From an uncultured virus (IMG/VR IMGVR_UViG_3300037847_003885) (lineage: Duplodnaviria > Heunggongvirae > Uroviricota > Caudoviricetes), in IMG/VR virus record IMGVR_UViG_3300037847_003885, positions 1-64,000 of that record: a DNA stretch of 64,000 nt; one strand, given 5' to 3'. The position numbers and the translations under genes were made by a program. The notes below the pieces were generated by a model. That model was not told the DNA's origin and did not search any database. It was given only the letters and a program-made list of their open reading frames with translations. Position 1 is the stretch's first letter. Every line of letters starts with the position of its first letter. Positions 1 to 24,635 of the stretch are shown here, piece after piece.

Positions 1-1
1 C

Positions 2-142
2 TCACGCACAGATGAGAGTAAGGCGATGACTGATATGGCTAATGAGTTCTTGAATGAGATAGTCAAGTCAATGGAGTATGACTCGCCCGAAGATTTCCTA
101 AAGCAGTTCTCACATGAGTATGATATGTACATCCCTAAATGA
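2..142 (+). CDS. 3' end of a hypothetical protein (partial, runs off the left edge)
   Basis: Frame starting at nt 2 is open (SRTDESKAMTDMANEFLNEIVKSMEY...MYIPK) to TGA at 140-142; not in ORF track. Confidence 0.6.
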   Translation, partial: SRTDESKAMTDMANEFLNEIVKSMEYDSPEDFLKQFSHEYDMYIPK

Positions 143-180
143 TGATAGTCGTTATTTAGGTGACACTCATAGGTGAATCC

Positions 181-855
181 ATGTCGCCTATGGAACTCGC
201 CATGCAAGAGATTCGGGCGAGGCAACAGGCGGGAGAACGAGGTCAGTTCTTAGGCGGTAGCACAGGCGCAAGGCTATTCGATGTACCGCAAGGCCGTTTC
301 GTATCTAAGCGTGGTAGTAGTCCTGCTCATATTCGCAATGAGTATGAGATGAATCGCTTACTGAATCTATTAGGCGTAGGCGTTCCGCAAGCGCACTTTG
401 ATGATGACCACATGATAACCGAGTATCAGCAGGGTCGCCACATTCAACCAATAAGAGATAGAGCGCATACTGCGAGAGATATTGTTCCGCATGCGATGAT
501 TGCTAATTGGGATATGCTAGGTTTGGATAATGACAATGCCATAGTGTTACCCGATGGTAGTATATCCTATGTTGATGTTGGAGGGGCAGGTGCTTTTAGA
601 GCGCAGGGCGCACCTAAAGGTTCAGCGTTTGGTTCTACCGTAGGTGAACTCGATACTTTAAGACTGAAAAATCCTAATGAGTTAGGTCACATAACTGAAC
701 AAGACATAGGTAGGTCATACGATACATACGGGGGCGAGGNNNNNNNNNNNNNNNNNNNNNNNATGCGTAGTGCCATTGACCAAGCAGTTCAAAACCCTAA
801 CACAGCGAGTATATTACAGCAAAGAGTGGGCGACATAGCGAGAAGAGTTGCTTAA
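181..855 (+). CDS. Putative kinase-fold protein (HipA / PI3-PI4 kinase-like)
   Basis: Gly-rich loop LGGSTGA, FVSK, NEY...LGVGVP, catalytic-loop-like ANWDMLGLDNDN and metal-binding-like YVDVGG...FRAQG; ATG 181 preceded by AGGTGA (track start 160); interrupted by a 23-N gap. Confidence 0.55.
   Translation: MSPMELAMQEIRARQQAGERGQFLGGSTGARLFDVPQGRFVSKRGSSPAHIRNEYEMNRLLNLLGVGVPQAHFDDDHMITEYQQGRHIQPIRDRAHTARDIVPHAMIANWDMLGLDNDNAIVLPDGSISYVDVGGAGAFRAQGAPKGSAFGSTVGELDTLRLKNPNELGHITEQDIGRSYDTYGGEXXXXXXXXMRSAIDQAVQNPNTASILQQRVGDIARRVA
740..762. other. Assembly gap (23 N)
   Basis: Run of n in the sequence. Confidence 1.
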
Positions 856-897
856 AATTAACACTGAAAGAAATAATATATAAACCAACTAAGAAAT
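854..897 (+). promoter_or_regulatory. Repeated early-type promoter element, copy 1 (BRE-like purines + TATATAAA)
   Basis: AAAATTAACACTGAAAGAAATAATATATAAACCAACTAAGAAAT; near-identical copies at 3191, 6937, 8893, 14114, 24608; TATA about 25 nt before ATG 906. Confidence 0.8.
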
Positions 898-905
898 ATT
901 GGTTG

Positions 906-1136
906 ATGATAACTGATACAAAACAATTAGCAGTATATGTCCTTCGATGGTTGGACAGACATGGGTTAGGTGACACTGACCTAAGAGAAGTAGTGGACTT
1001 AATGGGTAACTATAGTTACTCTTCACTTGAGCGAGCAATAGAGAGGGTTGAGCAATACATGAATGTATTTCCTATATCGAATGATGGATTAGAGGCATGG
1101 CGAAGCAAATCGAAGAAGGTGATGGAGAATGAGTGA
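906..1136 (+). CDS. Hypothetical protein
   Basis: ORF directly downstream of promoter element; overlaps next gene. Confidence 0.7.
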   Translation: MITDTKQLAVYVLRWLDRHGLGDTDLREVVDLMGNYSYSSLERAIERVEQYMNVFPISNDGLEAWRSKSKKVMENE

Positions 1137-1461
1137 CACAAACGAACCGACAGAAATTGATATGATATTACATTATACAAGGGCGCACTCACCCGATGAG
1201 TGGCGTAAGTTGAGTAAGTCGTTGATTGAACTTAGCGATGATGACAGATATTTGATTGAATACGCACCGACACTACGAGCAGAAGTCAAGCGGTTGCGTG
1301 AAGAACTTAGCAAGGCTGAACAAAAGATAGACAAATACTCCGGTGCTTTGGACATGGCACTTGAACACTTAGGTTATGCAGGTGCAGACCACGAAGATTA
1401 TTGTAGAGAAGGGTGGGGTTGTAATGTCTATGGTGATGATTTGGAGGATGAAGAAGAATGA
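1129..1461 (+). CDS. Cassette-array protein (EVKRLRE module, lacks MIDTDKY start)
   Basis: Contains repeat B at 1281-1301; ATGA overlap with next gene. Confidence 0.8.
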   Translation: MSDTNEPTEIDMILHYTRAHSPDEWRKLSKSLIELSDDDRYLIEYAPTLRAEVKRLREELSKAEQKIDKYSGALDMALEHLGYAGADHEDYCREGWGCNVYGDDLEDEEE

Positions 1462-1862
1462 TTGACACAGACAAATACGAAGGACATACACCCGCACCGT
1501 GGAATTACAACAGTGAGGAAGGGCGAGAAATATGGAAGTGCCTTTACAATGGAGAGAGTTTTACTGACCCTTCCACTTATGGCAAGAAAGGCTACGAAGA
1601 AGTGCCGATTGCTACCATGACACCATTACCGGAGGGTGAAGATTTCTCCGATGAAGAGTTCACGACAATGATGGCGAACAAAATGCTGATGGCAGACGCA
1701 CCAAAACTTCTAGCAGAAGTCAAGCGGTTGCGTGAAGGAATTGGTAAAGTTGCTGACAACATGGCAAAACTCATTGAAGCATATTCTTCTCACCTCGCTG
1801 ATGAAGAAGTAGCGGATTGGATAGATGGTTTCATGAAAGATATGTTGGAGATGATTGAATGA
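1458..1862 (+). CDS. MIDTDKY/EVKRLR cassette protein 1 (HTPxPW...ADAPKLL type small viral protein)
   Basis: MIDTDKYEGHTPAPW...LMADAPKLLAEVKRLRE; SD plus ATGA coupling at both ends. Confidence 0.85.
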   Translation: MIDTDKYEGHTPAPWNYNSEEGREIWKCLYNGESFTDPSTYGKKGYEEVPIATMTPLPEGEDFSDEEFTTMMANKMLMADAPKLLAEVKRLREGIGKVADNMAKLIEAYSSHLADEEVADWIDGFMKDMLEMIE

Positions 1863-2161
1863 TTGACACAGACAAATACGCAGAACTAACGATTGACGAT
1901 TGGCATAACCTAAAGGCTCACCAATGGGAAGAAGTTATGCACTCTTACTGTAATATTGTTAGAGTAAATGAGTCACTACGCTTTGAACTTGATGGTAAGC
2001 ATGAAGATGGACTAAAGTGGATAGAGAAGTGCGAAGAATTAGATGCAGAAGTCAAGCGGTTGCGTGAAGAAAATAAGAAACTGGAGGATGCTATAAACCG
2101 TTGTGGTTTTAATGATGTAGAATATTCATGTTTAGATATTTTGGAGGGCGAGGAAGAATGA
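1859..2161 (+). CDS. MIDTDKY/EVKRLR cassette protein 2
   Basis: Repeats A and B in frame; ATGA coupling. Confidence 0.85.
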   Translation: MIDTDKYAELTIDDWHNLKAHQWEEVMHSYCNIVRVNESLRFELDGKHEDGLKWIEKCEELDAEVKRLREENKKLEDAINRCGFNDVEYSCLDILEGEEE

Positions 2162-2355
2162 TTGACACAGACAAATACGAAGAAACAGACCATCCCGAAC
2201 TTGTAGAGTTTGAGGGTGAAACACTTGGAGATACACTGACGAACTTGATTACAGAAGTCAAGCGGTTGCGTGAAACCATCAAGGCTTACTTAGATTTAGA
2301 CATGGATTCATTGGAGTTCTGTCGGATAATGAGAGAAATGGGAGTGATTGAATGA
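2158..2355 (+). CDS. MIDTDKY/EVKRLR cassette protein 3
   Basis: Start moved from track 2128 to ATG 2158 (repeat A, GGAGG SD, ATGA overlap). Confidence 0.85.
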   Translation: MIDTDKYEETDHPELVEFEGETLGDTLTNLITEVKRLRETIKAYLDLDMDSLEFCRIMREMGVIE

Positions 2356-2630
2356 TTGACACAGACAAATACGAAGAAATGACATGGGAAACGCCATCCG
2401 ATGAATTAGAGGATGCAGTAGAGAACCTGCTCGCAGAAGTCAAGCGGTTGCGTGAAGAGAATCATATCTTGCGAATGGCTGATTGGGAATATGAAAGAGT
2501 ATGGGATTGGCTCATGGAGAATGCCGACTATACTTGTAGGAAGTTACTACTTCTCATAGAAGAATGGAAAGAAGAAGATGGCTTAGTCACGATTGATGGT
2601 ATGACATACAAGAAGGAGATGATTGAATGA
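2352..2630 (+). CDS. MIDTDKY/EVKRLR cassette protein 4
   Basis: Repeats A and B in frame; ATGA coupling. Confidence 0.85.
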   Translation: MIDTDKYEEMTWETPSDELEDAVENLLAEVKRLREENHILRMADWEYERVWDWLMENADYTCRKLLLLIEEWKEEDGLVTIDGMTYKKEMIE

Positions 2631-2959
2631 TTGACACAGACAAATATGAAGGACATACTAAAGGTGATAATGAAGTTGGTTGGAGAATAACCAACAACTT
2701 CGTGTCAAATGGTAAATGCCCTAATGACAGATACATCGCTTATGTTCAAGCATTCAGCGTAGTTGATTTTGACCTTGAGGACAAGGTCATTGAGTTTTCC
2801 GATGCTGATGCAAACTTGATAGCAGACGCACCATTACTCCTTGAAGAAGTCAAGCGGTTGCGTGACTTGATAGAGCAAGTAGTTGATGTGTGGGAAAATT
2901 GTAATCACGAAGATAGAAATGATTGGTTCAATAACTTCTGTGAGGTGATGAAAGAATGA
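2627..2959 (+). CDS. MIDTDKY/EVKRLR cassette protein 5
   Basis: MIDTDKYEGHT...ANLIADAPLLLEEVKRLR; ATGA coupling. Confidence 0.85.
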   Translation: MIDTDKYEGHTKGDNEVGWRITNNFVSNGKCPNDRYIAYVQAFSVVDFDLEDKVIEFSDADANLIADAPLLLEEVKRLRDLIEQVVDVWENCNHEDRNDWFNNFCEVMKE

Positions 2960-3192
2960 CAATGAGCGACCACCAAGACAGCGAATCATTCATGGGCGTT
3001 AGGGATGAGAAAGTTATCCTTGCTATGCTCGATAGAGCCGAGCGCAAACAGAACATGCACTTCACAAGGATGCAGATAGGTAAGAAGAAAGAGCGTATCT
3101 ATCACATGAGAAATTACAAGGCACTTGAGGGCGTAGTCAAAGCCCTTAGATGGACACTAGGTGACAAGTACATAGACCATCCATTAGAATAA
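2956..3192 (+). CDS. Hypothetical protein
   Basis: GAGGTGA SD and ATGA overlap; ends at promoter copy 2. Confidence 0.75.
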   Translation: MTMSDHQDSESFMGVRDEKVILAMLDRAERKQNMHFTRMQIGKKKERIYHMRNYKALEGVVKALRWTLGDKYIDHPLE

Positions 3193-3236
3193 AATTGACA
3201 CTGAAAGAAATGATATATAAACCAAATAAGAAATGA
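3191..3236 (+). promoter_or_regulatory. Repeated promoter element, copy 2
   Basis: AAAATTGACACTGAAAGAAATGATATATAAACCAAATAAGAAATGA upstream of ORF 3240. Confidence 0.8.
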
Positions 3237-3239
3237 GAG

Positions 3240-4703
3240 ATGAGAAATATGCAATATAGTAAACATAGAGATGCGAACACATGGCACGAATTAGGACTGA
3301 TGGGTGATACCCTTTCATACACTGACGAAGAAGTACTGACAAGTCAAGCGTTAGGGTATGTGAAACATACGGTAGGCAAGGCTAACCCAATGGACATAGC
3401 GGTACTGTACAGTATCGTTAGTATGGGCGAGAATGTAGAGGTCACGGCTAAAGATTTAGTCAATGACCATACAAGACTCGCCTCATTGTTTGAGTCGGGG
3501 AGAATTGTAAGAGGTGTATTAGACAGAAAGAAAGTTGTGTGTGATGGTGTTCACATAAAGCGTGAGTCCAATGAATACGGTAGACAAAGAAGAGTAGGGT
3601 ATATTAATTCCATAATAGGTGTATTAGACAGACATGAAATTGACTATCGTGATTACTTAGATGTAATATGCGGATGGGAAGTTGAAGGGGGATACAGTAG
3701 TATCTCAAGTGAATCACAAAAAAGTAGAAAGAAAGAGTTTGAAACTTTCTGTCGTAATTCAGTTGAATATAATTGGCCGAGTTATTACTTTACTACATCT
3801 AAAGGAACTTCAAAGATTAAATCAAAATATGGAGAAATTTCATGGTATGGTTTGTGTACAAGAGACAAGGAAAGTATGTGTACGATTCATGGCGGGGAAG
3901 CCAAAAGAAATGCTTGGGTCATGATGCCGGATTTACAAATCTTATCACCATCCAACATACCTGTAGGGTGGACAAGTGATTACTTACAAAAAAGGCTAGT
4001 GTTAGATGGCTCAATTGAATACAACAAAATGTTTACTCGCACTTACACTAAACACGCTGACGACAAGACGGTAATTAAACAAATCAACAAGGCTGTCAAT
4101 CGTATGAAGAAGCGTGGTGTAGTGTGTCAAACAACAGAAGGTAGAGGTCGTAAGTTCAAGTGGTATGACAGTGTGTGGCGAAAAGTTCAAGATAAAAGAA
4201 CAAAAATCATGGCATCTAATTCTAAGAAGCGTAAGTTAGGTGATGAAGTAAACGGTTGGGTGTATTCAAAGGGTCATGTGCAAAAATCATTCGGTATGGA
4301 AATCGTGTCTTATGTTTGGAAACCGATAGAAAAGTTACATACCTATGACATTATTGGGTACAATGTTAGATTCTTAAATGAACAGGATGCTATTGATTAT
4401 TGTTCCGCAGTAAATAATGCCATGCGACCAAACAATCTTCAAGTATGTGTAGATAGAAAAATCAAGAATGGAGAATTACAGTTTGTTACTCCTACCATTA
4501 GGTACAAGACTAACAATGTGACCACTGAATTAAATCTACACCCTAATGTTGAAGTTGAATCAATGTCTACTCCACAACAATGTTTAGTGAACTTACAAAC
4601 TAAAGGTGACATGTGGTTTGAAATGCACAAAGATAAATTTACAACAATGCCGTTTGGTTATAGGGAGGATAAACTAAACCGTACAAAGGAAGTGACTGGA
4701 TGA
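3240..4703 (+). CDS. Hypothetical protein, 487 aa, basic
   Basis: Long ORF behind promoter copy 2; no motif recognised. Confidence 0.8.
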   Translation: MRNMQYSKHRDANTWHELGLMGDTLSYTDEEVLTSQALGYVKHTVGKANPMDIAVLYSIVSMGENVEVTAKDLVNDHTRLASLFESGRIVRGVLDRKKVVCDGVHIKRESNEYGRQRRVGYINSIIGVLDRHEIDYRDYLDVICGWEVEGGYSSISSESQKSRKKEFETFCRNSVEYNWPSYYFTTSKGTSKIKSKYGEISWYGLCTRDKESMCTIHGGEAKRNAWVMMPDLQILSPSNIPVGWTSDYLQKRLVLDGSIEYNKMFTRTYTKHADDKTVIKQINKAVNRMKKRGVVCQTTEGRGRKFKWYDSVWRKVQDKRTKIMASNSKKRKLGDEVNGWVYSKGHVQKSFGMEIVSYVWKPIEKLHTYDIIGYNVRFLNEQDAIDYCSAVNNAMRPNNLQVCVDRKIKNGELQFVTPTIRYKTNNVTTELNLHPNVEVESMSTPQQCLVNLQTKGDMWFEMHKDKFTTMPFGYREDKLNRTKEVTG

Positions 4704-4852
4704 ATAAAAATTGTAGATTATCAATGCCGTTATGCCCTTATTGTTCATTAGAACAAATGAAGTTGAACTATACAGACGGTACAAGATATGCTTGTGAAGA
4801 TTTTTATTACCATTTACCTTTAGAGGACATAAAAACACTGATGGGTGATTAA
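4700..4852 (+). CDS. Small Cys/His protein (50 aa), possible zinc binder
   Basis: Not in track; ATGA overlap with 4703; MNKNCRLSMPLCPYC...YACEDFYYH...; fills the gap to the next gene. Confidence 0.55.
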   Translation: MNKNCRLSMPLCPYCSLEQMKLNYTDGTRYACEDFYYHLPLEDIKTLMGD

Positions 4853-4853
4853 G

Positions 4854-5105
4854 ATGAGCAAGACAGTTATACGCAACAGGATTACTAAGTTACTAAAAGT
4901 AAAACCTAATTTATACACAGGACAAATCTACGATATAGTACACGGTAATGTCAAGATACCGGAGATAGACTTCAAACCCCTACGAGTAGGTGTAACGAGG
5001 AATGAGTTAAGCACAGTGCTTGGTCGTTATTATCGTAAAGTTAGGTACGACAATAAGCACAAGCAAAGCAGATGGGCGTTAAGAGAGGCGGTGAAGAAAG
5101 AATGA
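4854..5105 (+). CDS. Small basic protein, possible winged-helix DNA binder (DUF3860-like pattern)
   Basis: RNRITKLL...TGQIYDIV...GVTRNELSTVLG...W pattern; GGTGA SD before ATG 4854. Confidence 0.45.
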   Translation: MSKTVIRNRITKLLKVKPNLYTGQIYDIVHGNVKIPEIDFKPLRVGVTRNELSTVLGRYYRKVRYDNKHKQSRWALREAVKKE

Positions 5106-5329
5106 CATGGTGTAGTAATATGAACAACGAATGGATAAACAAGCAGAAAGAAATCAAGTTGAAAATAAAGAAGCAAAGGATATTGGAGTTAGAAGAAAAA
5201 GCAAAGAGAATTTTCCTTGAACATACAGATTGGGATTATGTTCTCGATATGCTTGACGATGATGAAAAGAAAGAGTATGCTAAATTGTATAAAGACTTAT
5301 TTGAGGCGGTGAAGAAAGATGAAAAATAA
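5102..5329 (+). CDS. Hypothetical protein flanked by 17-nt direct repeat
   Basis: ATGA overlap at 5102 (track start 5072); GAGGCGGTGAAGAAAGA at 5085 and 5303. Confidence 0.7.
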   Translation: MTWCSNMNNEWINKQKEIKLKIKKQRILELEEKAKRIFLEHTDWDYVLDMLDDDEKKEYAKLYKDLFEAVKKDEK

Positions 5330-5612
5330 ATTAAGAGATAAAATAAAACAAGATATGATAGACTTGCAGAACAGGTTGGACAAACTAAACTTTTGGGAAG
5401 AGTCCGGCTACGCAGATAAACCATGTGTAGAGCATGAGTGGACATTGGTTCACCATCAAGCGTTGGCTACACCTACCGTTGCAGACAATGAAATGGAATT
5501 GAGATACTTGTGTAAAGTGTGTGGGCTTTCAACAAAGAGGGTATTCAAAATAGATAATGAAACGCTGTTCGATGAATGGGCGGAGTATCGTGAAGGAGGC
5601 GAGGAAGAATGA
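5319..5612 (+). CDS. Hypothetical protein with CxxH...CxxC zinc motif
   Basis: CVEHEW...CKVCG; ends GGEEE in a junction repeat. Confidence 0.75.
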   Translation: MKNKLRDKIKQDMIDLQNRLDKLNFWEESGYADKPCVEHEWTLVHHQALATPTVADNEMELRYLCKVCGLSTKRVFKIDNETLFDEWAEYREGGEEE

Positions 5613-5752
5613 TACACAGCGATGATTACATTGAGGGAGTAAAGAAAGGAATACTCATGGGTTATTGCTTAGGGTGTTCCCACGCCTATCCGTTAGTAGA
5701 TATGAACAAGCAAGGCTTGTGTAAAGAATGTGAAGGAGGCGAGGAAGAATGA
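5609..5752 (+). CDS. 47-aa zinc-finger mini-protein flanked by 23-nt direct repeat
   Basis: Not in track; MIHSDDYIEG...CLGC...CKECEGGEEE; ATGA overlaps on both sides. Confidence 0.75.
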   Translation: MIHSDDYIEGVKKGILMGYCLGCSHAYPLVDMNKQGLCKECEGGEEE

Positions 5753-6096
5753 GTTGGATTCCCCTCTTTTCTCTCTTTCGCCCTCGTGGTATCGTCATAG
5801 ATGACTACGAAGGACATAGCACACATTGGAAGGCTCATTTCTTTGAGGATGGCTCGGTAGCAGTAGGTGGAATATGTAAATTGTTTACCGAAGAAGTAGG
5901 ACAAAGAACAAGGAAGAAAATTGAAGCAGATGCTTTACTGATACAAGACGCACCAAAACTTCTTGCTGAAATCAAACGGTTGCGTGAAGCGATTACTGAT
6001 ATTGCTAACAATATGGAGGCGGCTGATGGGTATTACATGAGTGATTACATTGAGGACTTACACAGAAGTATTACAAATGGGAAGGTGATTGAATGA
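5749..6096 (+). CDS. Dispersed, diverged member of the EVKRLR cassette family
   Basis: DDYEGHSTHW...LIQDAPKLLAEIKRLREAITDIANNM, similar to the 1458 protein; degenerate repeat B near 5968-5989. Confidence 0.8.
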   Translation: MSWIPLFSLFRPRGIVIDDYEGHSTHWKAHFFEDGSVAVGGICKLFTEEVGQRTRKKIEADALLIQDAPKLLAEIKRLREAITDIANNMEAADGYYMSDYIEDLHRSITNGKVIE

Positions 6097-6404
6097 AGAA
6101 AGAATGTAATCATGAGTGGACATTTAGCGTGCCATACAGACCAAGTGACAGTGATGGTATAGTCCATGTGTTTGTTGAGGCTTACTGTAAAATCTGCGAA
6201 GAACATAGAACCACTGACTATTCTTGGGATATAGATGAATACCACGATTTAGCCGAAAAAGGTCACTATGAAGTGTATGAATGCGATTGGTGCGGAACAG
6301 AAATGCAAGGTGAGGGTCACTTTAGAGAAGAGATAGATGATGACGATATTCACATCTGTTCAAAGGAATGCTACGAAATGATGTATGGAGGCGAGGAAGA
6401 ATGA
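6093..6404 (+). CDS. Double zinc-finger-like hypothetical protein
   Basis: CNHEW...CKIC...CDWC...CSKEC; ends GGEEE. Confidence 0.75.
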   Translation: MKKECNHEWTFSVPYRPSDSDGIVHVFVEAYCKICEEHRTTDYSWDIDEYHDLAEKGHYEVYECDWCGTEMQGEGHFREEIDDDDIHICSKECYEMMYGGEEE

Positions 6405-6472
6405 GAATGACATTAAATGAATTGATGTGGATTTGGATTTGTGAACAAATAATTAAGGAGAGAGACAAATGA
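6401..6472 (+). CDS. 23-aa micro-ORF bridging translational coupling
   Basis: ATGA overlap with 6404 and TGA overlapping ATG 6469; MRMTLNELMWIWICEQIIKERDK. Confidence 0.45.
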   Translation: MRMTLNELMWIWICEQIIKERDK

Positions 6473-6957
6473 ACCAATCAATCAAAGTAAGTAATGGCTC
6501 ACTTACTATGTGTGGCCTTAATGACTTCCGTGATACACTACAACCGAACCACACGATAGTTACACTGTGTCGCTACCCACCTAGATACATAGACTCGGAC
6601 AAGCATGAGCGACACCACTATTACTTTAGGGCTAAAAATAGTACACCGGAGATATGGGCGCATGCCGTAGACTTGGTGATTGACTTACTCGACACAGGTA
6701 AGGATGTACTCTTGCACTGTGTACACGGTAGGGATAGGACAGGCGGAGTAGCGTATGTTGTACTACGCTTACTTGCCAACCTTAACGACAAAGAAGTAAG
6801 AGCGAAGATGGCTGAACTAAGACCATCTATGGCTATACCGTGGAAAGACATACTACCGAAGAACAAAGAGTTGTACGACAGTATTGCGAGGGAATTAATA
6901 CACAATATGATTCACGAAAACAAAAATAAAAACAAGACTGAAAGAAATGATATATAA
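6469..6957 (+). CDS. Dual-specificity / protein-tyrosine phosphatase
   Basis: VLLHCVHGRDRTG matches the HCxxGxxR(T/S) P-loop signature (6715-6741). Confidence 0.85.
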   Translation: MNQSIKVSNGSLTMCGLNDFRDTLQPNHTIVTLCRYPPRYIDSDKHERHHYYFRAKNSTPEIWAHAVDLVIDLLDTGKDVLLHCVHGRDRTGGVAYVVLRLLANLNDKEVRAKMAELRPSMAIPWKDILPKNKELYDSIARELIHNMIHENKNKNKTERNDI

Positions 6958-6970
6958 ACCAACTAAGAAA
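6937..6970 (+). promoter_or_regulatory. Repeated promoter element, copy 3
   Basis: ACTGAAAGAAATGATATATAAACCAACTAAGAAA upstream of 6997. Confidence 0.8.
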
Positions 6971-6996
6971 AGAGAGATGAAAAGGAGAGATAAAAA

Positions 6997-7998
6997 ATGC
7001 ACAATATAGCACAAACACAAACAGGAGAATGGATGACAGCATGGGCGGGGGCAACTCCGTGGCACAAGTTAGGAACACAAGCAGATGGATTGATGACCAC
7101 GCATGATGCGTTAATCAAGGCCAACTTGAATTGGGTGGTTACCAAAGAGCCATTGTACTATGAGGACAATGATGAGATGGATGTACTGCCCGGTACATAC
7201 GGTGTGTTCCGTACTGAAAGCGGCAAGAAGATTCCATTGACAAAGAACGGACAAACAGTTGGCAAGGTATGGAAAGCACTACAGAATGTAGAAGCGTTTT
7301 CATTCCTTGACGAATTGACAGGTGACCACAAGCCGAAGGTTGAGGTATGTGGTGCGCTAGGCGAAGGACAGACAGTTTGGATACTAGCGAGGCTACCTAC
7401 AAGTATCGTGTTCGATAATGTAGATACAGTCCACAAGTATCTGTTGATAAGCAACACACACGATGGCACAGGCTCGGTAAGAATACTACCGACACCTATC
7501 CGTGTGGTATGTTTCAATACTTTGTCAATGGCGTTAGGTCGAGGTAAAGGTCAAGGGTATGCAATCCGTCACTCCGGTAAGATGCACGAGAGAATGGAAG
7601 AAGCAAAGAAAGCACTACAGGCTGTAGAAGAGGACTTCACACAATGGGCTAATGATGTAGAGCGTATGTTGAATACGAAAATTAATCTTGAAACTACGCA
7701 AGAATACTTCATTGATGTCATGGACTTGAAGCGTGATGAAGATGGTGAACTTGCGACAAGAGGTAAGAACATTATTGCTTCCACCAACAAACTACTACTG
7801 TCACCTACTAACAACATCGGTAACATGAGTGGCACAGTATGGGCGGCTTACAATGCAATCACAGAAGCGATTGACCACAGCCTCACTCAACTGCGTAATG
7901 GTGAGACAAGTATCAAGCGCACACAGTCAGCCATGTTCGGCCCACTTGCACGAAGAAAGGTTATTGCATGGAACAAAGCGATGGAGTTGTTAGCGTGA
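6997..7998 (+). CDS. DUF932/DUF945-type phage/plasmid protein (TIGR03299-like)
   Basis: TPWHKLG, QNVEAFSF, YLLISNTHDGTGS, TPIRVVCFNTL, IRHSG, GTVWAAYNAITE. Confidence 0.85.
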   Translation: MHNIAQTQTGEWMTAWAGATPWHKLGTQADGLMTTHDALIKANLNWVVTKEPLYYEDNDEMDVLPGTYGVFRTESGKKIPLTKNGQTVGKVWKALQNVEAFSFLDELTGDHKPKVEVCGALGEGQTVWILARLPTSIVFDNVDTVHKYLLISNTHDGTGSVRILPTPIRVVCFNTLSMALGRGKGQGYAIRHSGKMHERMEEAKKALQAVEEDFTQWANDVERMLNTKINLETTQEYFIDVMDLKRDEDGELATRGKNIIASTNKLLLSPTNNIGNMSGTVWAAYNAITEAIDHSLTQLRNGETSIKRTQSAMFGPLARRKVIAWNKAMELLA

Positions 7999-8273
7999 AA
8001 TTAACACTGAAAGAACTTAACGAGATTGTGACTGATGCACAGATGGAAGCGGAAGAAATCATGCGTAACAAGATAGTGAAGTATATCAACAAAGGTTACA
8101 CGACTAACGGGATACTGTTCATGCTTGGTCAGTTCAATCTTGTTACAGGTCGCAAACATGAGAGTGAGGTTGAGATAGATGGCTACAAGGATGGTGAAAC
8201 TATCCAAGTTATGAAAATGTCCGAGGCAACATCTAAGGTATTACATTCAATACAATCGGAGGATGAAGAATGA
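7995..8273 (+). CDS. Hypothetical protein
   Basis: GTGA overlap with DUF932 stop (track start 7968). Confidence 0.65.
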   Translation: MKLTLKELNEIVTDAQMEAEEIMRNKIVKYINKGYTTNGILFMLGQFNLVTGRKHESEVEIDGYKDGETIQVMKMSEATSKVLHSIQSEDEE

Positions 8274-8593: not shown

Positions 8594-8894
8594 GGGATGG
8601 TTGAGTATCGTAAAGCACAGGGATAAGGAACATACATTATTGGTGCGAGCGAGAAATAAAAATCACATTGAAAGTATTTTTCCAAATGCAGAAGTGTATG
8701 AAGATGCAAATGCAGACTACCCATACAGGGCAGACATAGACAACTATGTTGTAGGCACTGTCATCGGTGACCTGCTGATGGGTATAAACTATGACAACTT
8801 CAAAGCGAGTGTAAATGATTACCATTACCACTTTGCATTGGTAGGGGTATGGCAAGAGATGTATGACTACGGTAAAAAATACAGACCGGAATAA
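8574..8894 (+). CDS. Conserved phage-type hypothetical protein
   Basis: MWIxTxxGxxSIV...LLVRAR...DYPYRA...I.YxNFK pattern recalled from uncharacterised phage proteins; GGTGA SD. Confidence 0.7.
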   Translation: MWIATNKGWLSIVKHRDKEHTLLVRARNKNHIESIFPNAEVYEDANADYPYRADIDNYVVGTVIGDLLMGINYDNFKASVNDYHYHFALVGVWQEMYDYGKKYRPE

Positions 8895-8920
8895 ATAATA
8901 TATAAACCAAATAAGAAATG
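8893..8920 (+). promoter_or_regulatory. Repeated promoter element, copy 4
   Basis: AAATAATATATAAACCAAATAAGAAATG. Confidence 0.75.
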
Positions 8921-12214: not shown

Positions 12215-12530
12215 TTGGTATCATCCTAATAGAGTATGGATATTCAATGATGGGGCGTTAAAGGGAGAGCCGCTATACTACGGCTTCGATAGAGTAGTTG
12301 CTAAATTACTTGAGAAGTTAGGTGCGGTGCTTTATCGCAAAGCCCATCGTACAGGATGTAAGTTGATTTTGTCCGAAAGGCAAAAACCTAATACTTTCAA
12401 ATTTAATTTAATATCTGTAGATAACGGTGGTGCTAAGTACGGTAATGACGAACTTGGTAAAGGGTGGATTGAGAGTGAAGCCTTGATAGGTACACCCGAT
12501 GTTCTTTATGTTGGAGTCGGGGTGGATTAG
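12189..12530 (+). CDS. Hypothetical protein (possibly DUF6717-like)
   Basis: WIFND..L.GEP..GFD...LILS...GG.Y pattern. Confidence 0.55.
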   Translation: MTTKIYHLNWYHPNRVWIFNDGALKGEPLYYGFDRVVAKLLEKLGAVLYRKAHRTGCKLILSERQKPNTFKFNLISVDNGGAKYGNDELGKGWIESEALIGTPDVLYVGVGVD

Positions 12531-13744
12531 TGTTACTTGGTAGAGCGATAGTATTAGTTTCAAAGATGCCTAAGTTAGATGTTAAAGACATCACTAAGGA
12601 AGAGGCATACGAACTATGGGAGTTCTTGGATGAAGAAAGAAAACTACCGATAACAAAAACAAGACTGAAAATAAATTTAGCAAAAGAGTGCGGTGTATTC
12701 GTAGAACAGTTAGATGCAGTAGCCAATGGTGCTTCTCTAGCAGAAGTGCTGATAATGGAATCGTCGGACAGCAAAACAAGTAAATTAAAACTAAAAGAAA
12801 TTAAGAGTATAATTCAATCGGTGACAAGTGATGAAGAGTGGATAATACCATTCTGTCACTCGATGGATATTACAGAAGCCGAGTTTGTTTGGCGGTGGAC
12901 TTTGAATGAGCGTTGGCGTTCACTTAGATACCGAATGAGAAAGTGGGCTAAAATTAATTCTAAAATTAATGATGACCTAATTAGTACATTTGAGATGTTA
13001 GATGTTATATTCGGATTGAGAGAAAAGCAAGAAGTAGAGCGACCTGCTACAGATTTCAAACGGTTACAAGCATGGAACGGTATAGACATACCCGACAAGT
13101 ATTGGTTTGTCAATGATTGCGGTACGCTGATGTTCTTAGAGAACGGTGTTGCTAGAAATAGAAACGGTGAGATAAATCGAGAGTACACACCACAAGTGCA
13201 GGGAGTTGATACTTGTTGGTGTTGGGTGGATGTGTTAGGTACAACAAGACTACACTCTACAGAACAAGAGATACCGTTTTCAAAATACAAAGAGCCTATG
13301 GATATTTCATGGCATGAGGCTAACAAGATTCTTTACAATTACCCAAAGGGTGGTTTCTTAATCCTTAATGATAATCATTATCACTTGTACACTAAAGGTA
13401 CTAACGCTTTGATTGTTCAAGCCTTGTCCGTTAGACAGATTAAAAACGCAGGGTACGAATTTATTTTAGGTGTTAAAGATGGGGTAGATATTATTGATGT
13501 AGATAAGATGACGGTAGAAAACCTACCGTTTGAGTTAGAGAGTGCGTTGAAAAGAAATAGTATTCCTGTACAAAATTCACACACTAGCCATGACATACCG
13601 TTTGTGGTTATCGAAGTTGCATACTCATGGCGAGCAGAAGATGGGTGGGGGTGGCGTTACATTACTACGCTAGATGACGCATCCATCAATGAGATTGATG
13701 AGTACACTACTTACATATCTATGGTAGGTGTAGACAATGAGTGA
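12530..13744 (+). CDS. Highly diverged ATP-dependent DNA ligase-like protein, probably inactive
   Basis: Ligase-like layout: helical N-domain (EAEFVWR), RNRNGE, GGFLIL, C-terminal P.VVIEV.Y...WRY...DD; no KxDG. Confidence 0.4.
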   Translation: MLLGRAIVLVSKMPKLDVKDITKEEAYELWEFLDEERKLPITKTRLKINLAKECGVFVEQLDAVANGASLAEVLIMESSDSKTSKLKLKEIKSIIQSVTSDEEWIIPFCHSMDITEAEFVWRWTLNERWRSLRYRMRKWAKINSKINDDLISTFEMLDVIFGLREKQEVERPATDFKRLQAWNGIDIPDKYWFVNDCGTLMFLENGVARNRNGEINREYTPQVQGVDTCWCWVDVLGTTRLHSTEQEIPFSKYKEPMDISWHEANKILYNYPKGGFLILNDNHYHLYTKGTNALIVQALSVRQIKNAGYEFILGVKDGVDIIDVDKMTVENLPFELESALKRNSIPVQNSHTSHDIPFVVIEVAYSWRAEDGWGWRYITTLDDASINEIDEYTTYISMVGVDNE

Positions 13745-14148: not shown

Positions 14149-15084
14149 ATGAAGATGAATTGGAACGAATTACTACGACCTACTAAACCGGTAGAGATAG
14201 TAGGTAACAATGTCTTTGTCGAAGATTTCCTTGAATGGGAAAAAACGGGTGAGTACCCATCAGCCATACTTATACTCGGTCCTCCGGGTACAGGTAAGTC
14301 TAGTGCGGCAAATGCGATAACACACACAATGTTAGGACAATGGAATAATGATATGAATGTTCTATGGACTAACGCAAGCGACGATAGGGGTATTGGGCAT
14401 GTCCGACAGGAGATTAAACAATTCTGTCGGCTTAGTGGTATCAATGCGGCACGAAAGGTAGTAGTACTTGATGAGGCTGATGGGCTTACTCCCCAATCCC
14501 AAGATGCACTAAGGGGTATCATGGAGAAATATGCTCACAGGGTCTTGTTTATCTTGACAGCAAACTATCCCGAAAAAATCAAACCTGCCATACAAAGCAG
14601 ATGTAAGATATATCAGTTCACTCCTGTCACTCCAAAAGAAGGTGCTAGACATTTGCTAAGAGCGACAGAATCATGTGGCGCACCCGTTGAATGGGAACAA
14701 GCCTATGAAGATGTAGTAGAACATTTCAATGGTGACTTGAGGGCGGCTGTGAACTTCCTTGAAAGTAGACCAAAAAATCAAGAGTTATCTTTTATCAAAA
14801 CCACCGAGGCGTGGTGGGATGACTTCAAGTTACATGATGATTATAATTCTCTTAGAGAGAAACTTAATGAAAACATGGAAACCGCAGGTAGCCGTGTATA
14901 TTTTATGAATAAATTTCACCAATACATTAGAGGGTACTTTGACAAAGACCCGGATACTGTATTCGCTATCATGTCCGTTTGGGGCGACATGATGGAGAAA
15001 GTACATGAATGGCCGGGAAGTGATAACGCTTTCGTGGATGTGTTGGTGGCAAGACTAAAGAAACAAATAGGTGAAATGAAATGA
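14149..15084 (+). CDS. rfcS: Replication factor C small subunit (clamp loader)
   Basis: W.E..RP, Walker A GPPGTGKS, NASDDRGI, Walker B LDEADGL, SRC, GDLR.A.N. Confidence 0.92.
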   Translation: MKMNWNELLRPTKPVEIVGNNVFVEDFLEWEKTGEYPSAILILGPPGTGKSSAANAITHTMLGQWNNDMNVLWTNASDDRGIGHVRQEIKQFCRLSGINAARKVVVLDEADGLTPQSQDALRGIMEKYAHRVLFILTANYPEKIKPAIQSRCKIYQFTPVTPKEGARHLLRATESCGAPVEWEQAYEDVVEHFNGDLRAAVNFLESRPKNQELSFIKTTEAWWDDFKLHDDYNSLREKLNENMETAGSRVYFMNKFHQYIRGYFDKDPDTVFAIMSVWGDMMEKVHEWPGSDNAFVDVLVARLKKQIGEMK

Positions 15085-16388
15085 GTTGGAAAGAAGAAGA
15101 TGAATACATAGACGAAGAAAGTAATACAGGTTTTGGGGAGAAGAAATCAAGCGATGGTTTCCCTGTGCCTGTTGCTCAAAGAATGGTAGCATACGCTGAA
15201 AGAACAGGAAAGAACATCGAAGAAGTCAAACAGATGTATTTGGATTACATAAAGAAAGAATACGGTGTTGAGGACTACACACAAGAAGATGTGGATATTC
15301 TAATTGATTGGGCGGAACAAGCCTTCGTACAAACAAGAAAGCAAACAGCAAGCACATCGGGAACATCTACATGGGTAGGTTGTTTCATAGGCGTGGCTGA
15401 TAGAACAAAAGATAGACTTACAAATATTGTAAATGCTAATGTAAAACTGTTCAAAGAGAATCGTGCCGAAGCAATTGGTACAGGTAGAGTAGGTGTCTAT
15501 GAGAAAGACGGTGGTTTGTGGTCAGTGCGTAACAAAGACGGACTACAACCACTTGATGAATCAGCAGACAGTGAACCGCTACATGGTATCAAGGTCGGTG
15601 ACGAGTACATCTGTTTACTCACCCGCAAAGGTATGCCATCACCACCAACAAGGATGGGTAGATACGCTTACTTCTTGGGTGGCGAAGAAGGTGACTTCGT
15701 TAAGAATAGTAACATAGCAGTGTGGAAGGTAGACTTAACTGACGATAACAATACTATGAACTTAGACATAGGCCGACCATGTAAGATACCCGTTATACCA
15801 CCAAGAGAAGATGCTAATGATTTCTTCAAGACTGTCTTGGGTACATACTCTAACTTTGAAATTAATTATTCGGATGACTTCGTACCGGAAGAAGTAAGAC
15901 CATTACTTCAACCTGTAAGTTATTGGACTAACGAAGAGTTCCACGACATGTATGTTAGAATTGATGACATCGAAGATGTCTTTGAGAGTAAGAAAGAGAA
16001 AACTAACATCGGTGGTAGAAGTGTCACATACGGGCCACTTATTATTACTAAGGGTACAATCAACAGCATGAATACCGAGCCAAGAGACAGCGAGTATGAC
16101 CCGGAGGGCTTCAATTACTTCATGTCACTAAGTAGCATGAACGGTGATGTAGACTGTTGGATACCCGGTGCTGTCGGTATCATGACTAATCCATTCCAAG
16201 CACATTGGGGAGAGCAAGCATTTGACTATGCTGAAAACTCTACAGTGTTTGTCTTTGGTCGTCTAGGTATGAAAGACCGTGATGGTTTGATGAGTCCTAA
16301 GATTACAGTCATGGGTATCTATGGACACCCACGCAGATGCCGAAGGAGAGCAAGCGGTGGGAATACAGGCGTAGGTCAGTTTGAGTGA
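15081..16388 (+). CDS. Putative ssDNA-binding (OB-fold, RPA-like) replication protein
   Basis: Position between RFC and ATPase; C-terminal beta pattern VDCWI...STVFVFGR...ITVMGIY; function inferred. Confidence 0.4.
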   Translation: MSWKEEDEYIDEESNTGFGEKKSSDGFPVPVAQRMVAYAERTGKNIEEVKQMYLDYIKKEYGVEDYTQEDVDILIDWAEQAFVQTRKQTASTSGTSTWVGCFIGVADRTKDRLTNIVNANVKLFKENRAEAIGTGRVGVYEKDGGLWSVRNKDGLQPLDESADSEPLHGIKVGDEYICLLTRKGMPSPPTRMGRYAYFLGGEEGDFVKNSNIAVWKVDLTDDNNTMNLDIGRPCKIPVIPPREDANDFFKTVLGTYSNFEINYSDDFVPEEVRPLLQPVSYWTNEEFHDMYVRIDDIEDVFESKKEKTNIGGRSVTYGPLIITKGTINSMNTEPRDSEYDPEGFNYFMSLSSMNGDVDCWIPGAVGIMTNPFQAHWGEQAFDYAENSTVFVFGRLGMKDRDGLMSPKITVMGIYGHPRRCRRRASGGNTGVGQFE

Positions 16389-24613: not shown

Positions 24614-24635
24614 TATATAAACCAATTAAGAAATG
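24608..24635 (+). promoter_or_regulatory. Repeated promoter element, copy 6 (upstream of helicase)
   Basis: AAATGATATATAAACCAATTAAGAAATG. Confidence 0.8.

What the first reader, a model, noticed from the sequence alone, without database searches (positions are those of the whole stretch)
1129..2959. Two-repeat modular gene array: invariant A and B repeats bracket largely unrelated in-frame segments
Seen: six tandem genes contain the exact 21-mer AGAAGTCAAGCGGTTGCGTGA (1281, 1715, 2047, 2253, 2435, 2845). Five begin inside the exact 22-mer GAATGATTGACACAGACAAATA (1456, 1857, 2156, 2350, 2625), which also holds the previous gene's stop (ATGA). The cores show no synonymous variation. The segments between them are largely unrelated and vary in length (A-to-B 235, 166, 73, 61, 196 nt; B-to-A 154, 121, 88, 76, 169 nt), all preserving frame. 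Inference: nucleotide-level invariance with unrelated interiors is not what simple paralog decay gives. It suggests the repeats are recombination or conversion sites. A-A exchange would add or delete whole genes, and B-B exchange would swap N- and C-terminal halves, giving a combinatorial library of small acidic proteins with a shared EVKRLR coiled-coil (possible hetero-oligomeric host-takeover or anti-defence factors). No integrase or RT is in the window, but a RecA-family ATPase (16398) and a Cas4-like exonuclease (21248) could act on short homologies. I know of no description of this architecture in archaeal viruses.
Basis: partly seen in the sequence, partly recalled or inferred. Interest (0 to 1): 0.9.

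Follow-up and report, generated by a model that had tools for sequence, protein, structure and literature searches.

The report
Half-gene shuffling at two DNA joints
Six small neighbouring genes of a marine archaeal virus are built from front and back halves joined at two short, almost letter-perfect DNA stretches, and related viruses carry the same halves in other combinations, so these stretches are the places where new genes are spliced together in frame.

Summary
The 21-mer A occurs 6 times and the 22-mer B 5 times, against 0 expected, in six overlapping + strand genes.

The recombination reading is largely supported. Exact A or B occurs in 133 IMG/VR contigs. Ten of 10 large ones tested carry a capsid protein 74-89% identical to the window's, so this is one magrovirus-like lineage.

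Similarity between genes of different contigs starts and stops at A and B. Front and back halves reassort almost freely: partners stay together in 51 of 54 pairs with identical front halves and in 0 of 82 pairs under 95% identical.

Codon use in the joints is far more uniform than chance, with some drift. Copies within a genome are no more alike than copies between genomes.

The best explanation is short-homology exchange between co-infecting relatives. The proteins are acidic and under purifying selection, and some resemble phrog_1273; their function is unknown.

This is a new variant of linker-mediated modular shuffling (PeSL cassettes, T-even adhesins). This scan found the same or related arrays before on other DNA (four earlier notes). 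My literature searches found no description.

The parts
853..896 (+). promoter-like element with an AT-rich TATA-like core (GAAAGAAATAATATATAAACCAA at 866-888); likely start of the transcription unit that holds the array
   Evidence: One of 5 copies on the + strand, at 866, 3203, 6940, 8888 and 24603; 0 expected. Repeat families D6/D7. Promoter function is inferred.
903..1136 (+). first ORF of the unit (77 aa, TTG start as listed); no joints
   Evidence: no family
1129..1461 (+). gene 1 (110 aa), which starts with a decayed B (1127-1148, 5 mismatches) and holds A1
   Evidence: A relative of its front half in another contig starts with canonical MIDTDKY and has a different back half.
1281..1301 (+). 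joint A1 (codes EVKRLRE)
   Evidence: bridged by k=31 contigs of three runs
1456..1477 (+). joint B1: stop of gene 1, start of gene 2, codons MIDTDKY; GGAG(G) 9-14 nt upstream of the ATG
   Evidence: family D3
1458..1862 (+). gene 2 (134 aa), phrog_1273-like front half, helical back half
   Evidence: (E 5.4e-06)
1715..1735 (+). joint A2
   Evidence: bridged
1857..1878 (+). joint B2
1859..2161 (+). gene 3 (100 aa)
   Evidence: Its front half occurs fused to gene 2's back half in P0024.
2047..2067 (+). joint A3
   Evidence: bridged
2156..2177 (+). joint B3
2158..2355 (+). gene 4 (65 aa)
   Evidence: Both halves occur elsewhere with other partners.
2253..2273 (+). joint A4
   Evidence: bridged
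2350..2371 (+). joint B4
2352..2630 (+). gene 5 (92 aa)
2435..2455 (+). joint A5
   Evidence: not bridged by any listed contig piece
2625..2646 (+). joint B5
2627..2959 (+). gene 6 (110 aa), phrog_1273-like
   Evidence: E 2.6e-05. Its front half occurs fused to gene 2's back half in P0013.
2845..2865 (+). joint A6
   Evidence: bridged
2956..3192 (+). last gene of the unit (78 aa), without joints here
   Evidence: A 63% identical relative in L004 begins MIDTEHF, a B-like leader.
3190..3233 (+). next promoter-like element, which closes the unit
5749..6096 (+). outlying family member (115 aa) with a decayed A at 5967-5987 (AEIKRLRE)
   Evidence: phrog_1273, E 0.0068. Its back half resembles a back-half cluster found with 6 front halves.

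Best explanation
The array is a hyper-recombining early operon of a magrovirus-like archaeal tailed virus. Its small genes consist of a front module and a back module.

Two short DNA stretches act as in-frame joints. B holds a Shine-Dalgarno-like GGAG, the overlapping stop and start (ATGA) and the first seven codons (MIDTDKY). A lies in mid-gene and codes EVKRLRE, in the first turns of a long helix.

Related viruses that meet in one cell exchange DNA by homologous recombination or polymerase template switching across these 21-32 nt patches of identity. Exchange at A makes new front/back chimeras. Exchange at B replaces, adds or removes whole genes while keeping translational coupling. Because every exchange resolves inside a joint, the joints stay nearly identical across the population while the modules between them diverge and reassort.

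Shown here: the joints, the sharp similarity steps at them, the near-free reassortment, the reduced synonymous drift, and purifying selection on the modules.

Inferred: the enzymatic route (viral or host recombination and replication, with no dedicated recombinase), co-infection as the setting, and the reason the joints stay uniform.

Unknown: what the acidic proteins do. My guess is host take-over or counter-defence.
For: **Spread.** Exact A lies in 72 loci and exact B in 118 loci, together 133 contigs. A and B are always on the same strand. The window's capsid protein has 74-89% identical relatives in 10 of 10 large joint-bearing contigs tested.

**Steps at A.**
- 74 gene pairs that share only the back half are about 0.25-0.30 identical upstream, 0.93 in A and 0.80-0.86 downstream.
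- 59 pairs that share only the front half show the mirror image.

**Steps at B.** 28 pairs share the upstream side only, 79 the downstream side only, and 3 non-identical pairs share both.

**Ends of long matches.** Of 917 ends of long inter-contig matches inside arrays, 611 lie within 12 nt of a joint. Such zones make up 24% of array bases.

**Reassortment.**
- 32 of 48 front clusters seen in two or more contigs have more than one back partner. The same holds for 33 of 46 back clusters.
- Pairs keep the same back half in 51 of 54 cases when the front halves are identical, in 8 of 25 at 95-100% identity, and in 0 of 82 below 95%.

**The window's own modules.**
- All 17 relatives of the window's own modules in other IMG/VR contigs have a different other half.
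- In the large protein collection, gene 2's front half sits on at least ten different back halves. Some of these proteins were seen on 16, 30 and 31 contigs.
- Gene 2's back half sits behind the front halves of the window's genes 6 (P0013) and 3 (P0024).

**Codons.**
- EVKRLR uses one codon string in 84 of 128 cases in loci fetched by B alone. MIDTDKY uses one string in 79 of 99 cases in loci fetched by A alone. The chance expectation for the A string is about 1.25e-4.
- Same-residue codon identity is 0.91 in the joint, 0.80 in shared modules, 0.89 between genes that share nothing else, and 0.40 by chance.

**The leader on unrelated bodies.** The MIDTDKY leader also heads 43 distinct proteins without an A-like motif, among them Cys-rich ones.

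**The modules are real coding sequence.** dN/dS is about 0.30.

**Against assembly error.**
- k=31 contigs from three runs of two studies bridge 5 of the 6 A joints exactly as in the window.
- Shared modules are about 17% diverged.
- 27 pairings recur in two or more metagenomes.

**No RNA element.** There is no Rfam match and no shared RNA structure.

**No dedicated recombinase.** No integrase or reverse transcriptase was found among the 32 ORFs scanned.
Against: - Everything rests on metagenome assemblies. No listed contig piece bridges any of the 5 B joints or joint A5 (27 of 238 pieces listed), so the gene order in the window rests on its original assembly alone.
- Loci were fetched by exact joints, which inflates uniformity. 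The cross-fetched counts and one genome found through its capsid protein (G011: A copies with 2, 3 and 6 mismatches; B copies with 1, 1 and 3) reduce this bias but do not remove it.
- One in three long-match ends lies away from a joint.
- The same pattern could come from random breaks filtered by selection for working proteins. A lies in a strongly conserved protein block (L-x-ADAP-x-LL-AEVKRLRE), so protein constraint explains part of its conservation.
- One 96% identical relative (P0001) keeps gene 2's pairing.
- No recombination enzyme is tied to the joints.
- No excised circles or within-population variants were seen. The 'joints' are other family members.
Confidence: 0.75

Rival explanations
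1. The joints are conserved mainly for their own function: A as a protein motif at a helix start, B as a translation-initiation region plus leader peptide. The shuffling pattern then comes from rare illegitimate recombination, with selection keeping only in-frame products that break at tolerant places. Under this reading nucleotide identity plays no causal part.
For: - A sits inside a block that is nearly invariant at protein level (L77, A79, D80, A81, P82, L85, E87, V88, R90, L91), in the first turns of the long helix that starts at residue 81, just after the helix break in the model.
- B contexts are unstructured as RNA, as expected for a start region, and carry GGAG upstream.
- Non-synonymous variants of A exist.
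Against: - One codon string out of thousands possible is used in 66-80% of cross-fetched copies, including the rare CGG codon (5% of Arg codons).
- The joint is more uniform at synonymous sites than truly homologous modules, even between genes that share nothing else.
- The steps are sharp to within a few nucleotides of the identical stretch.
- The leader sits on unrelated proteins. The same protein occurs with and without it.
Confidence: 0.12
2. A dedicated site-specific system, an unrecognised recombinase or nuclease, recognises A and B and moves cassettes, as in integrons, shufflons or homing.
For: - The sequences are short, fixed, always co-oriented and used again and again.
- Many window ORFs have no family, among them 3240-4703, 12530-13744, 15081-16388 and 16398-17354.
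Against: - No integrase, transposase, HNH or reverse transcriptase family was found among the 32 ORFs scanned.
- All copies are direct repeats, with no palindrome or conserved hairpin.
- The flanking genes of arrays differ between contigs. For example, the 487-aa neighbour occurs in 9 of 133 contigs, so no conserved partner gene travels with the arrays.
Confidence: 0.06
3. Assembly artefact: short-read assemblers joined different co-occurring relatives at the shared repeats, producing false chimeras and false gene orders.
For: - The joints are shared by many co-occurring sequences. Summed word depth is 240-395 in the bin holding B1, against 5-8 in unique bins.
- k=31 contigs break at every B.
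- A false join at an in-frame motif would also be in frame.
Against: - Exact repeats are only 21-32 nt, shorter than reads and than usual final k-mers.
- 5 of the 6 A joints of the window are bridged by independent k=31 contigs.
- Chimeric partners of gene 2 were each recorded on 16-31 contigs.
- 27 pairings recur in two or more metagenomes, among them three linked pairings that each recur in two.
- Shared modules are about 17% diverged rather than identical to a co-assembled parent.
- Linkage decays smoothly with divergence.
Confidence: 0.03
4. The B leader is a sorting tag, like the capsid targeting sequence that is the only part shared by the diverse internal proteins of T-even phages. The array would then be a library of proteins packed into the virion and injected. 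This reading can hold together with the best explanation.
For: - One seven-residue leader sits on many unrelated small proteins.
- The virus has a prohead protease (Peptidase_S78).
Against: - The array lies on the strand and side of the replication genes, behind an early-looking promoter-like element, not in the structural block.
- No cleavage site or virion data exist.
- The same proteins occur without the leader.
Confidence: 0.08

Closest known systems
PeSL (promoter-early stem-loop) cassettes of T4-type phages (Arbiol et al. 2010, PMC2839356; abstract, sections 13 and 21 read)
   Same: Short conserved repeats in a hyperplastic region of small genes of unknown function. Insertions, deletions and replacements between relatives end at the repeats. 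The authors propose homologous recombination by the phage's general machinery without a dedicated recombinase. The element carries the SD and start codon of the downstream gene.
   Different: PeSLs are intergenic and hold a sigma-70-like promoter and a terminator stem-loop. They move whole ORFs, and mini-circles were shown. Here both joints are coding, there is no stem-loop, promoter-like elements stand only at the ends of the operon, one joint lies in mid-gene and swaps half-genes in frame, the host is archaeal, and circles were not looked for.
Exchange at conserved motifs inside T-even tail-fibre adhesin genes (Tetart et al. 1996, 1998, as cited in Trojet et al. 2011, PMC3157838; passages read)
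   Same: [quoted passage not shown]
   Different: That is one structural gene with glycine-rich motifs that form its core. It is not a tandem array of many small genes sharing a start joint and a mid-gene joint. No codon-level uniformity across unrelated segments was reported in the passages I read.
Botstein/Campbell modular theory with conserved linker sequences (as summarised in PMC2839356, section 21)
   Same: Modules are exchanged through flanking conserved linkers that keep placement and regulation.
   Different: The theory concerns gene blocks of lambdoid phages. Here the modules are half-genes and single small genes, and the linkers are translated.
T-even internal-protein loci with a shared capsid targeting sequence (PMC3012670 passages; PMC2839356 section 21)
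   Same: A variable locus of diverse small proteins that share only a short N-terminal leader.
   Different: Packaging and cleavage are unknown here, the proteins are acidic, and a second joint lies in mid-gene.
phrog_1273 / Pfam PF27050 Phage_P22_Y8K6 (small early phage proteins of unknown function)
   Same: Genes 2 and 6 and ORF 5749 match phrog_1273. Of the 120 listed relatives of gene 2, 41 carry PF27050.1 as a precomputed domain. The Atlas neighbours of gene 2 include PF27050 clusters.
   Different: Genes 1, 3, 4 and 5 match neither. Relatives outside this lineage (for example P0004 and P0011) lack the MIDTDKY leader and the EVKRLRE string. The family gives the front domain, not the joint system.
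Shufflons, integron cassettes, diversity-generating retroelements
   Same: They create protein variety from cassettes bounded by short repeats.
   Different: They need a recombinase, integrase or reverse transcriptase and inverted repeats, attC sites or template/variable repeat pairs. None of these is present here.

Membership tests
PeSL cassettes (T4-type phages) | Intergenic composite of a sigma-70-like early promoter and a stem-loop terminator | tested here: not met
   Both joints lie inside ORFs. No stable or shared hairpin: B contexts fold at 0 to -3 kcal/mol, no better than shuffles. Promoter-like elements stand only at 866 and 3203.
PeSL cassettes (T4-type phages) | Gene insertions, deletions and replacements between relatives end at the repeats | tested here: met
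   Similarity steps at B: 28 pairs share the upstream side only, 79 the downstream side only. 611 of 917 long-match ends lie at joints.
PeSL cassettes (T4-type phages) | Excised mini-circles | not testable with these tools
   Only contigs of older runs were available. The joints listed are other family members.
In-frame exchange at conserved coding motifs (T-even adhesins) | Chimeric proteins whose breakpoints lie in or next to conserved coding motifs | tested here: met
In-frame exchange at conserved coding motifs (T-even adhesins) | Homology to gp37/gp38 adhesins with glycine-rich motifs | tested here: not met
   No such family in the Pfam or PHROG scans. The model has a small sheet plus three helices.
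phrog_1273 | Significant match to the profile | tested here: inconclusive
   Gene 2 E 5.4e-06, gene 6 E 2.6e-05, ORF 5749 E 0.0068. Genes 1, 3, 4 and 5 have no match.
Pfam PF27050 Phage_P22_Y8K6 | Match above the family's gathering score | not testable with these tools
   The model is absent from the local Pfam copy. Indirect evidence only: 41 of 120 listed relatives carry it, and Atlas neighbours carry it in 19-38% of members.
Site-specific cassette systems (integron, shufflon, DGR) | Adjacent integrase, recombinase or reverse transcriptase | tested here: not met
   None among the 32 ORFs scanned, chosen from the ORFs of 130 aa or more. The 6311-aa ORF and small ORFs outside 1-6400 were not scanned.
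Site-specific cassette systems (integron, shufflon, DGR) | Inverted repeats, attC hairpins or template/variable repeat pairs | tested here: not met
   All copies are direct and co-oriented in the window and in 133 contigs.
T4-type internal proteins with a capsid targeting sequence | Shared short N-terminal leader on otherwise unrelated proteins | tested here: met
   43 distinct bodies without an A-like motif carry MIDTDKY-type leaders.
T4-type internal proteins with a capsid targeting sequence | Leader-dependent packaging into the prohead and cleavage by the prohead protease | not testable with these tools
   No virion data. A Peptidase_S78 gene is present.
Magroviruses (viruses of Marine Group II archaea) | Tailed-virus capsid module plus an archaeal-type replication module with PolB and a chaperonin (thermosome in groups A and D, per PMC5434244 passages) | tested here: met
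   DNA_pol_B, RFC-like AAA, Cpn60_TCP1 (E 1.7e-123), SU10-type capsid protein and S78 protease. Paper passages. No phylogeny was made, so the group was not assigned.

The most novel reading that the evidence does not exclude
The two joints are an evolved standard-connector system. A whole lineage of archaeal viruses keeps two translated DNA linkers uniform because this lets the population pool and recombine front and back domains of its early proteins at a rate that outruns point mutation. Pairings are lost before 5% divergence. The result is a shared combinatorial library, probably of host take-over or counter-defence proteins. The leader may also serve as a sorting tag, like that of T4 internal proteins.
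Probability: 0.25. Interest if true: 0.8.

Novelty: new variant of a known kind. Interest (0 to 1): 0.62.

Why it matters
The idea that phage modules are swapped through conserved linker sequences is some forty years old, and clear natural examples are few and mostly intergenic. Here the linkers are translated, one lies in mid-gene, and the data give a rate: front and back halves lose their partner before they diverge by 5%. That makes a natural, population-wide domain-shuffling system measurable.

The system sits in viruses of one of the most abundant archaeal groups of the surface ocean, whose early genes are otherwise blank. It also warns annotators and assemblers that these arrays break k-mer graphs, and that each 'gene family' here is a mosaic.

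If the proteins prove to be counter-defence factors, the system would show how an uncultured virus population explores protein space.

Tried and rejected
- **RNA element.** No Rfam match at E up to 1 in 1-8000. Folds around A and B are no better than shuffles, except for one A copy (z -2.7).
- **B as a copy of the promoter element.** ATTGACAC is shared only with the element at 3194. The elements at 857 and 6927 differ, and the octamer is not clearly enriched (7 found, 3 expected; 2 of 100 shuffles reach 7). Rejected.
- **Conversion inside the array.** Within-contig and between-contig identity of the joint are equal. Rejected.
- **Which half of A travels with which module.** The left and right halves of A gave no clear signal.
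- **Function from structure.** The AlphaFold2 model of gene 2 has pLDDT 78.7 and pTM 0.65. It has no PDB match at E up to 0.001 (best 1.5). Against BFVD there are only weak matches to uncharacterised phage proteins (best E 0.019; an Ead/Ea22-like protein at E 0.85). The PDB sequence search found nothing meaningful.
- **GroES-like guess for one leader-bearing protein.** No Pfam family. Among the 25 leader-only proteins scanned there were only sub-threshold zinc-ribbon or RING matches.
- **RecA-like ORF at 16398.** No support.
- **Whole genome of the window.** Not held, and the matching IMG/VR record is not held as a handle. Copies outside the window could therefore not be counted.
- **Read laying.** All four runs are contigs. 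The 15 listed 'skips' have short sides (22-47 letters) and unknown or foreign inserts. They are other family members in the same waters, not deletions in this virus. An RNA-library run holds 166 nt of gene 3 without a difference; this hints at transcription but does not show it. A part without cover proves nothing.
- **Cellular genomes.** Exact B occurs in one 9.3-kb contig of one MAG labelled Maricaulis, among 185,579 species genomes. It is most likely a mis-binned viral contig and gives no host clue.
- **Complex prediction.** Not run, because I make no binding claim.
Full report
**Observation.** The window holds six exact copies of the 21-mer A (1281, 1715, 2047, 2253, 2435, 2845) and one copy with 3 mismatches at 5967. 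It holds five exact copies of the 22-mer B (1456, 1857, 2156, 2350, 2625). Shuffled sequence gives none.

ORF listing shows six + strand genes: 1129-1461, 1458-1862, 1859-2161, 2158-2355 (read from the ATG inside B), 2352-2630 and 2627-2959. Each overlaps the next by ATGA inside B. Gene 1 starts with a decayed B that has 5 mismatches.

From A to B the distances are 154, 121, 88, 76 and 169 nt. From B to A they are 237, 168, 75, 63 and 198 nt. Exact identity between copies runs 21-27 nt at A and 22-32 nt at B.

**Setting.** Of the window's 39 ORFs of 130 aa or more, I scanned 32. They include family B DNA polymerase, an RFC-like AAA ATPase, a thermosome-type chaperonin (E 1.7e-123), an ERCC4 nuclease, a PD-(D/E)XK nuclease, an SU10-type major capsid protein and an S78 prohead protease. 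No integrase or reverse transcriptase was found. There is also a 6311-aa ORF, which was not scanned.

This matches the published description of magroviruses, where groups A and D carry a thermosome subunit (PMC5434244, passages).

A 23-nt AT-rich element occurs five times on the + strand, at 866, 3203, 6940, 8888 and 24603. The array lies between the first two with no intergenic gaps, so it looks like one operon (903-3192). Promoter function is inferred.

No whole genome is held for the window.

**The proteins.**
- All six are acidic, with pI 4.27-4.54. The family median is 4.61 over 293 distinct proteins.
- Genes 2 and 6 and ORF 5749-6096 match phrog_1273, a family of unknown function. The others match nothing.
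- A search of 5.8 billion protein clusters with gene 2 gave 1332 hits at E up to 0.001 among 2495 candidates. Of the 120 listed, 41 carry PF27050.1 as a precomputed domain. That model is not in the local Pfam copy.
- An AlphaFold2 model of gene 2 on a 40-row alignment (pLDDT 78.7, pTM 0.65) has a small sheet and helices at 65-79, 81-109 and 116-133. The A residues, E87-E93, lie in the first turns of the long helix, just after the conserved ADAP break.
- No solved or predicted viral structure matches convincingly.
- The function stays unknown.

**Spread of the joints.** Exact A lies in 72 IMG/VR loci and exact B in 118. After merging this is 133 contigs, and A and B are always on the same strand. 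One of these contigs carries the same array as the window and an identical capsid gene. I treated it as the window's own record.

The window's capsid protein has 74-89% identical relatives in 10 of 10 large joint-bearing contigs tested, so this is one virus lineage. Four near-complete relatives hold 4, 2, 1 and 1 copies of A (up to 2 mismatches), each at a single locus.

The genes beside the arrays vary. The window's 487-aa neighbour is found near the array in 9 of 133 contigs, and the 78-aa last gene in 22.

Among 185,579 species genomes, exact B occurs only on one 9.3-kb contig of a MAG.

**Exchange at the joints.** I extracted 348 genes (293 distinct proteins) that start with a B-like sequence or hold an A-like one: 205 with both, 97 with B only, 46 with A only.

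Clustering the 251 A-bearing genes at 60% identity gave 161 front clusters, 161 back clusters and 210 pairings. Of the 48 front clusters seen in two or more contigs, 32 have more than one back partner. Of 46 such back clusters, 33 have more than one front partner.

Identity profiles anchored at A are step functions:
- 74 pairs that share only the back half are 0.24-0.33 identical until about 40 nt before A, 0.93 in A and 0.76-0.86 after it.
- 59 pairs that share only the front half show the mirror image, with the drop right after position +21.

At B, 28 pairs share the upstream side only and 79 the downstream side only. Only 3 non-identical pairs share both sides.

Of 917 ends of inter-contig matches of 120 nt or more that lie inside arrays, 611 (67%) fall within 12 nt of a joint. 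Such zones hold 24% of array bases. The remaining third end elsewhere.

Linkage decays with divergence. Pairs with identical front halves (the last 60 nt or fewer before A) share the back half in 51 of 54 cases. At 95-100% identity the figure is 8 of 25, and below 95% it is 0 of 82.

**The window's own modules.** All 17 relatives of its front or back halves in other IMG/VR contigs carry a different other half.

The large protein collection adds the following:
- One 96% identical full-length relative of gene 2 (P0001).
- At least ten different back halves on gene 2's front half (P0002-P0011). Three of these proteins were recorded on 16, 30 and 31 contigs.
- Gene 2's back half behind other front halves, including those of the window's own genes 6 (P0013) and 3 (P0024).

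These last two joins are what unequal exchange or excision between array members would give.

**Codons.**
- The background usage in these loci would give the A codon string at about 1.25e-4.
- In loci fetched by B alone, 84 of 128 EVKRLR sites use that string. In loci fetched by A alone, 79 of 99 MIDTDKY sites use one string.
- Same-residue codon identity is 0.91 in the joint against 0.80 in the shared modules of the same pairs. It is 0.89 in pairs that share nothing else and 0.40 by chance.
- Drift exists. Near-matches with 1-5 changes are common.
- A 97%-complete relative found through its capsid gene, not through the joints, has three family genes. Its A copies are 2, 3 and 6 mismatches from canon and its B copies 1, 1 and 3.
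- Copies in one contig are no more alike than copies in different contigs (0.497 against 0.488, permutation p 0.41). The uniformity is a property of the population, not of conversion inside an array.

**The modules are real genes.** For shared modules pS is about 0.37, pN about 0.14 and dN/dS about 0.30.

**B is a DNA joint and not only a protein motif.** The leader heads 43 distinct proteins with no A-like motif, several of them Cys-rich. Twenty-five of these were scanned and none passed a Pfam cut-off.

The window's last gene (2956-3192) lacks the leader, while a 63% identical relative begins MIDTEHF. All five B copies have GGAG 9-14 nt before the ATG (family D3), and their RNA contexts are unstructured. 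B is therefore a translation re-start site plus seven codons.

**Assembly error.** Contigs built with k=31 from three runs of two studies bridge A1, A2, A3, A4 and A6 exactly as in the window. They break at every B and do not bridge A5, among the 27 pieces listed of 238. One of the runs may be the window's source.

Summed word depth in the bin holding B1 is 240-395, against 5-8 in unique bins. Many other joint-bearing sequences therefore share these waters.

Several points argue against artefact:
- The exact repeats are short.
- Chimeras recur on many contigs.
- 27 pairings recur in two or more metagenomes.
- Shared modules are about 17% diverged.
- Linkage decays smoothly.

The gene order in the window still rests on its original assembly.

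**Mechanism.** I take the joints to be patches of homology used by general recombination or template switching between co-infecting relatives. No dedicated enzyme is evident. The PD-(D/E)XK and ERCC4 nucleases are present, but their role is inferred.

From memory, not from a call: efficient homologous exchange in bacteria needs some 20-30 bp of identity. The PeSL paper cites a figure of under 50 bp for T4.

**Comparison with what is known.** PeSL cassettes share the logic but are intergenic promoter and terminator units that move whole ORFs. T-even adhesin genes exchange within or near conserved coding motifs (PMC3157838, passages). T-even internal proteins share only a leader (PMC3012670, passages).

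The present system combines a start joint and a mid-gene joint in an array of small genes of an archaeal virus.

**Search for a prior description.** Three magrovirus papers do not mention recombination, shuffling or hypervariable regions in their main text (term searches). No paper in the library holds the motif strings. The listing for 'magrovirus' had 22 papers; I opened three of them.

**Earlier notes of this scan.** Four notes describe the same or related arrays on other DNA with the same reading. I tested the claims myself.

Noticed in passing
866-888, 3203-3225, 6940-6962, 8888-8910, 24603-24625 (+ strand): A 23-nt AT-rich element (GAAAGAAATGATATATAAACCAA, 0-3 mismatches) stands just upstream of gene blocks. 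It is a likely archaeal-type promoter that divides the + strand block into operons. The longer shared context (about 70 nt) is seen at 853, 3190 and 6927.
   Followed up: partly
5590-5612, 5730-5752, 6382-6404: A third kind of conserved gene junction: GTGAAGGAGGCGAGGAAGAATGA. It codes ...EGGEEE plus the stop/start overlap and links small Cys-rich genes (5319-6404). Many family genes elsewhere also end in GEEE or EMIE/EVIE, so the upstream side of B has two alternative conserved endings.
   Followed up: no
5609-5752: This 47-aa Cys-rich ORF has relatives in 6 contigs (median 85% identity). One of them (L052:178-333) carries the MIDTDKYEGH leader in place of MIHSD.
   Followed up: partly
31195-50130 (- strand): A single ORF of 6311 aa next to the structural genes. 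It was not analysed.
   Followed up: no
740-762: A run of 23 N inside ORF 160-855 (a masked or unresolved stretch).
   Followed up: no
1861-2026: A contig of a metatranscriptome library (run X13) matches 166 nt of gene 3 without a difference. Another of its contigs joins a B-like and an A-like piece through 6 other letters. This hints that family genes are transcribed in the sea, but DNA carry-over is not excluded.
   Followed up: no
L196/L197 (one 9.3-kb contig of a MAG labelled Maricaulis): This contig holds 5 exact B copies. It is the only hit among 185,579 species genomes and is probably a viral contig binned with a bacterium.
   Followed up: no
L278:1922-2690 (- strand; handle G011): A relative chosen by its capsid gene has a three-gene array with drifted joints (MINTDK, MIDTDEY, MIDTEKY). 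Its modules recur in other contigs with other partners.
   Followed up: partly
several loci, e.g. proteins P0009, P0018, P0023: Some family genes hold two A motifs in tandem or a doubled ADAPLL...AEVKRLR block, as unequal exchange between joints would leave.
   Followed up: no
6469-6957 and 6997-7998: A tyrosine-phosphatase-like ORF (Y_phosphatase3, E 1.1e-06) and a DUF932 protein (E 1.4e-46; phrog_1221) follow the small-gene blocks.
   Followed up: no
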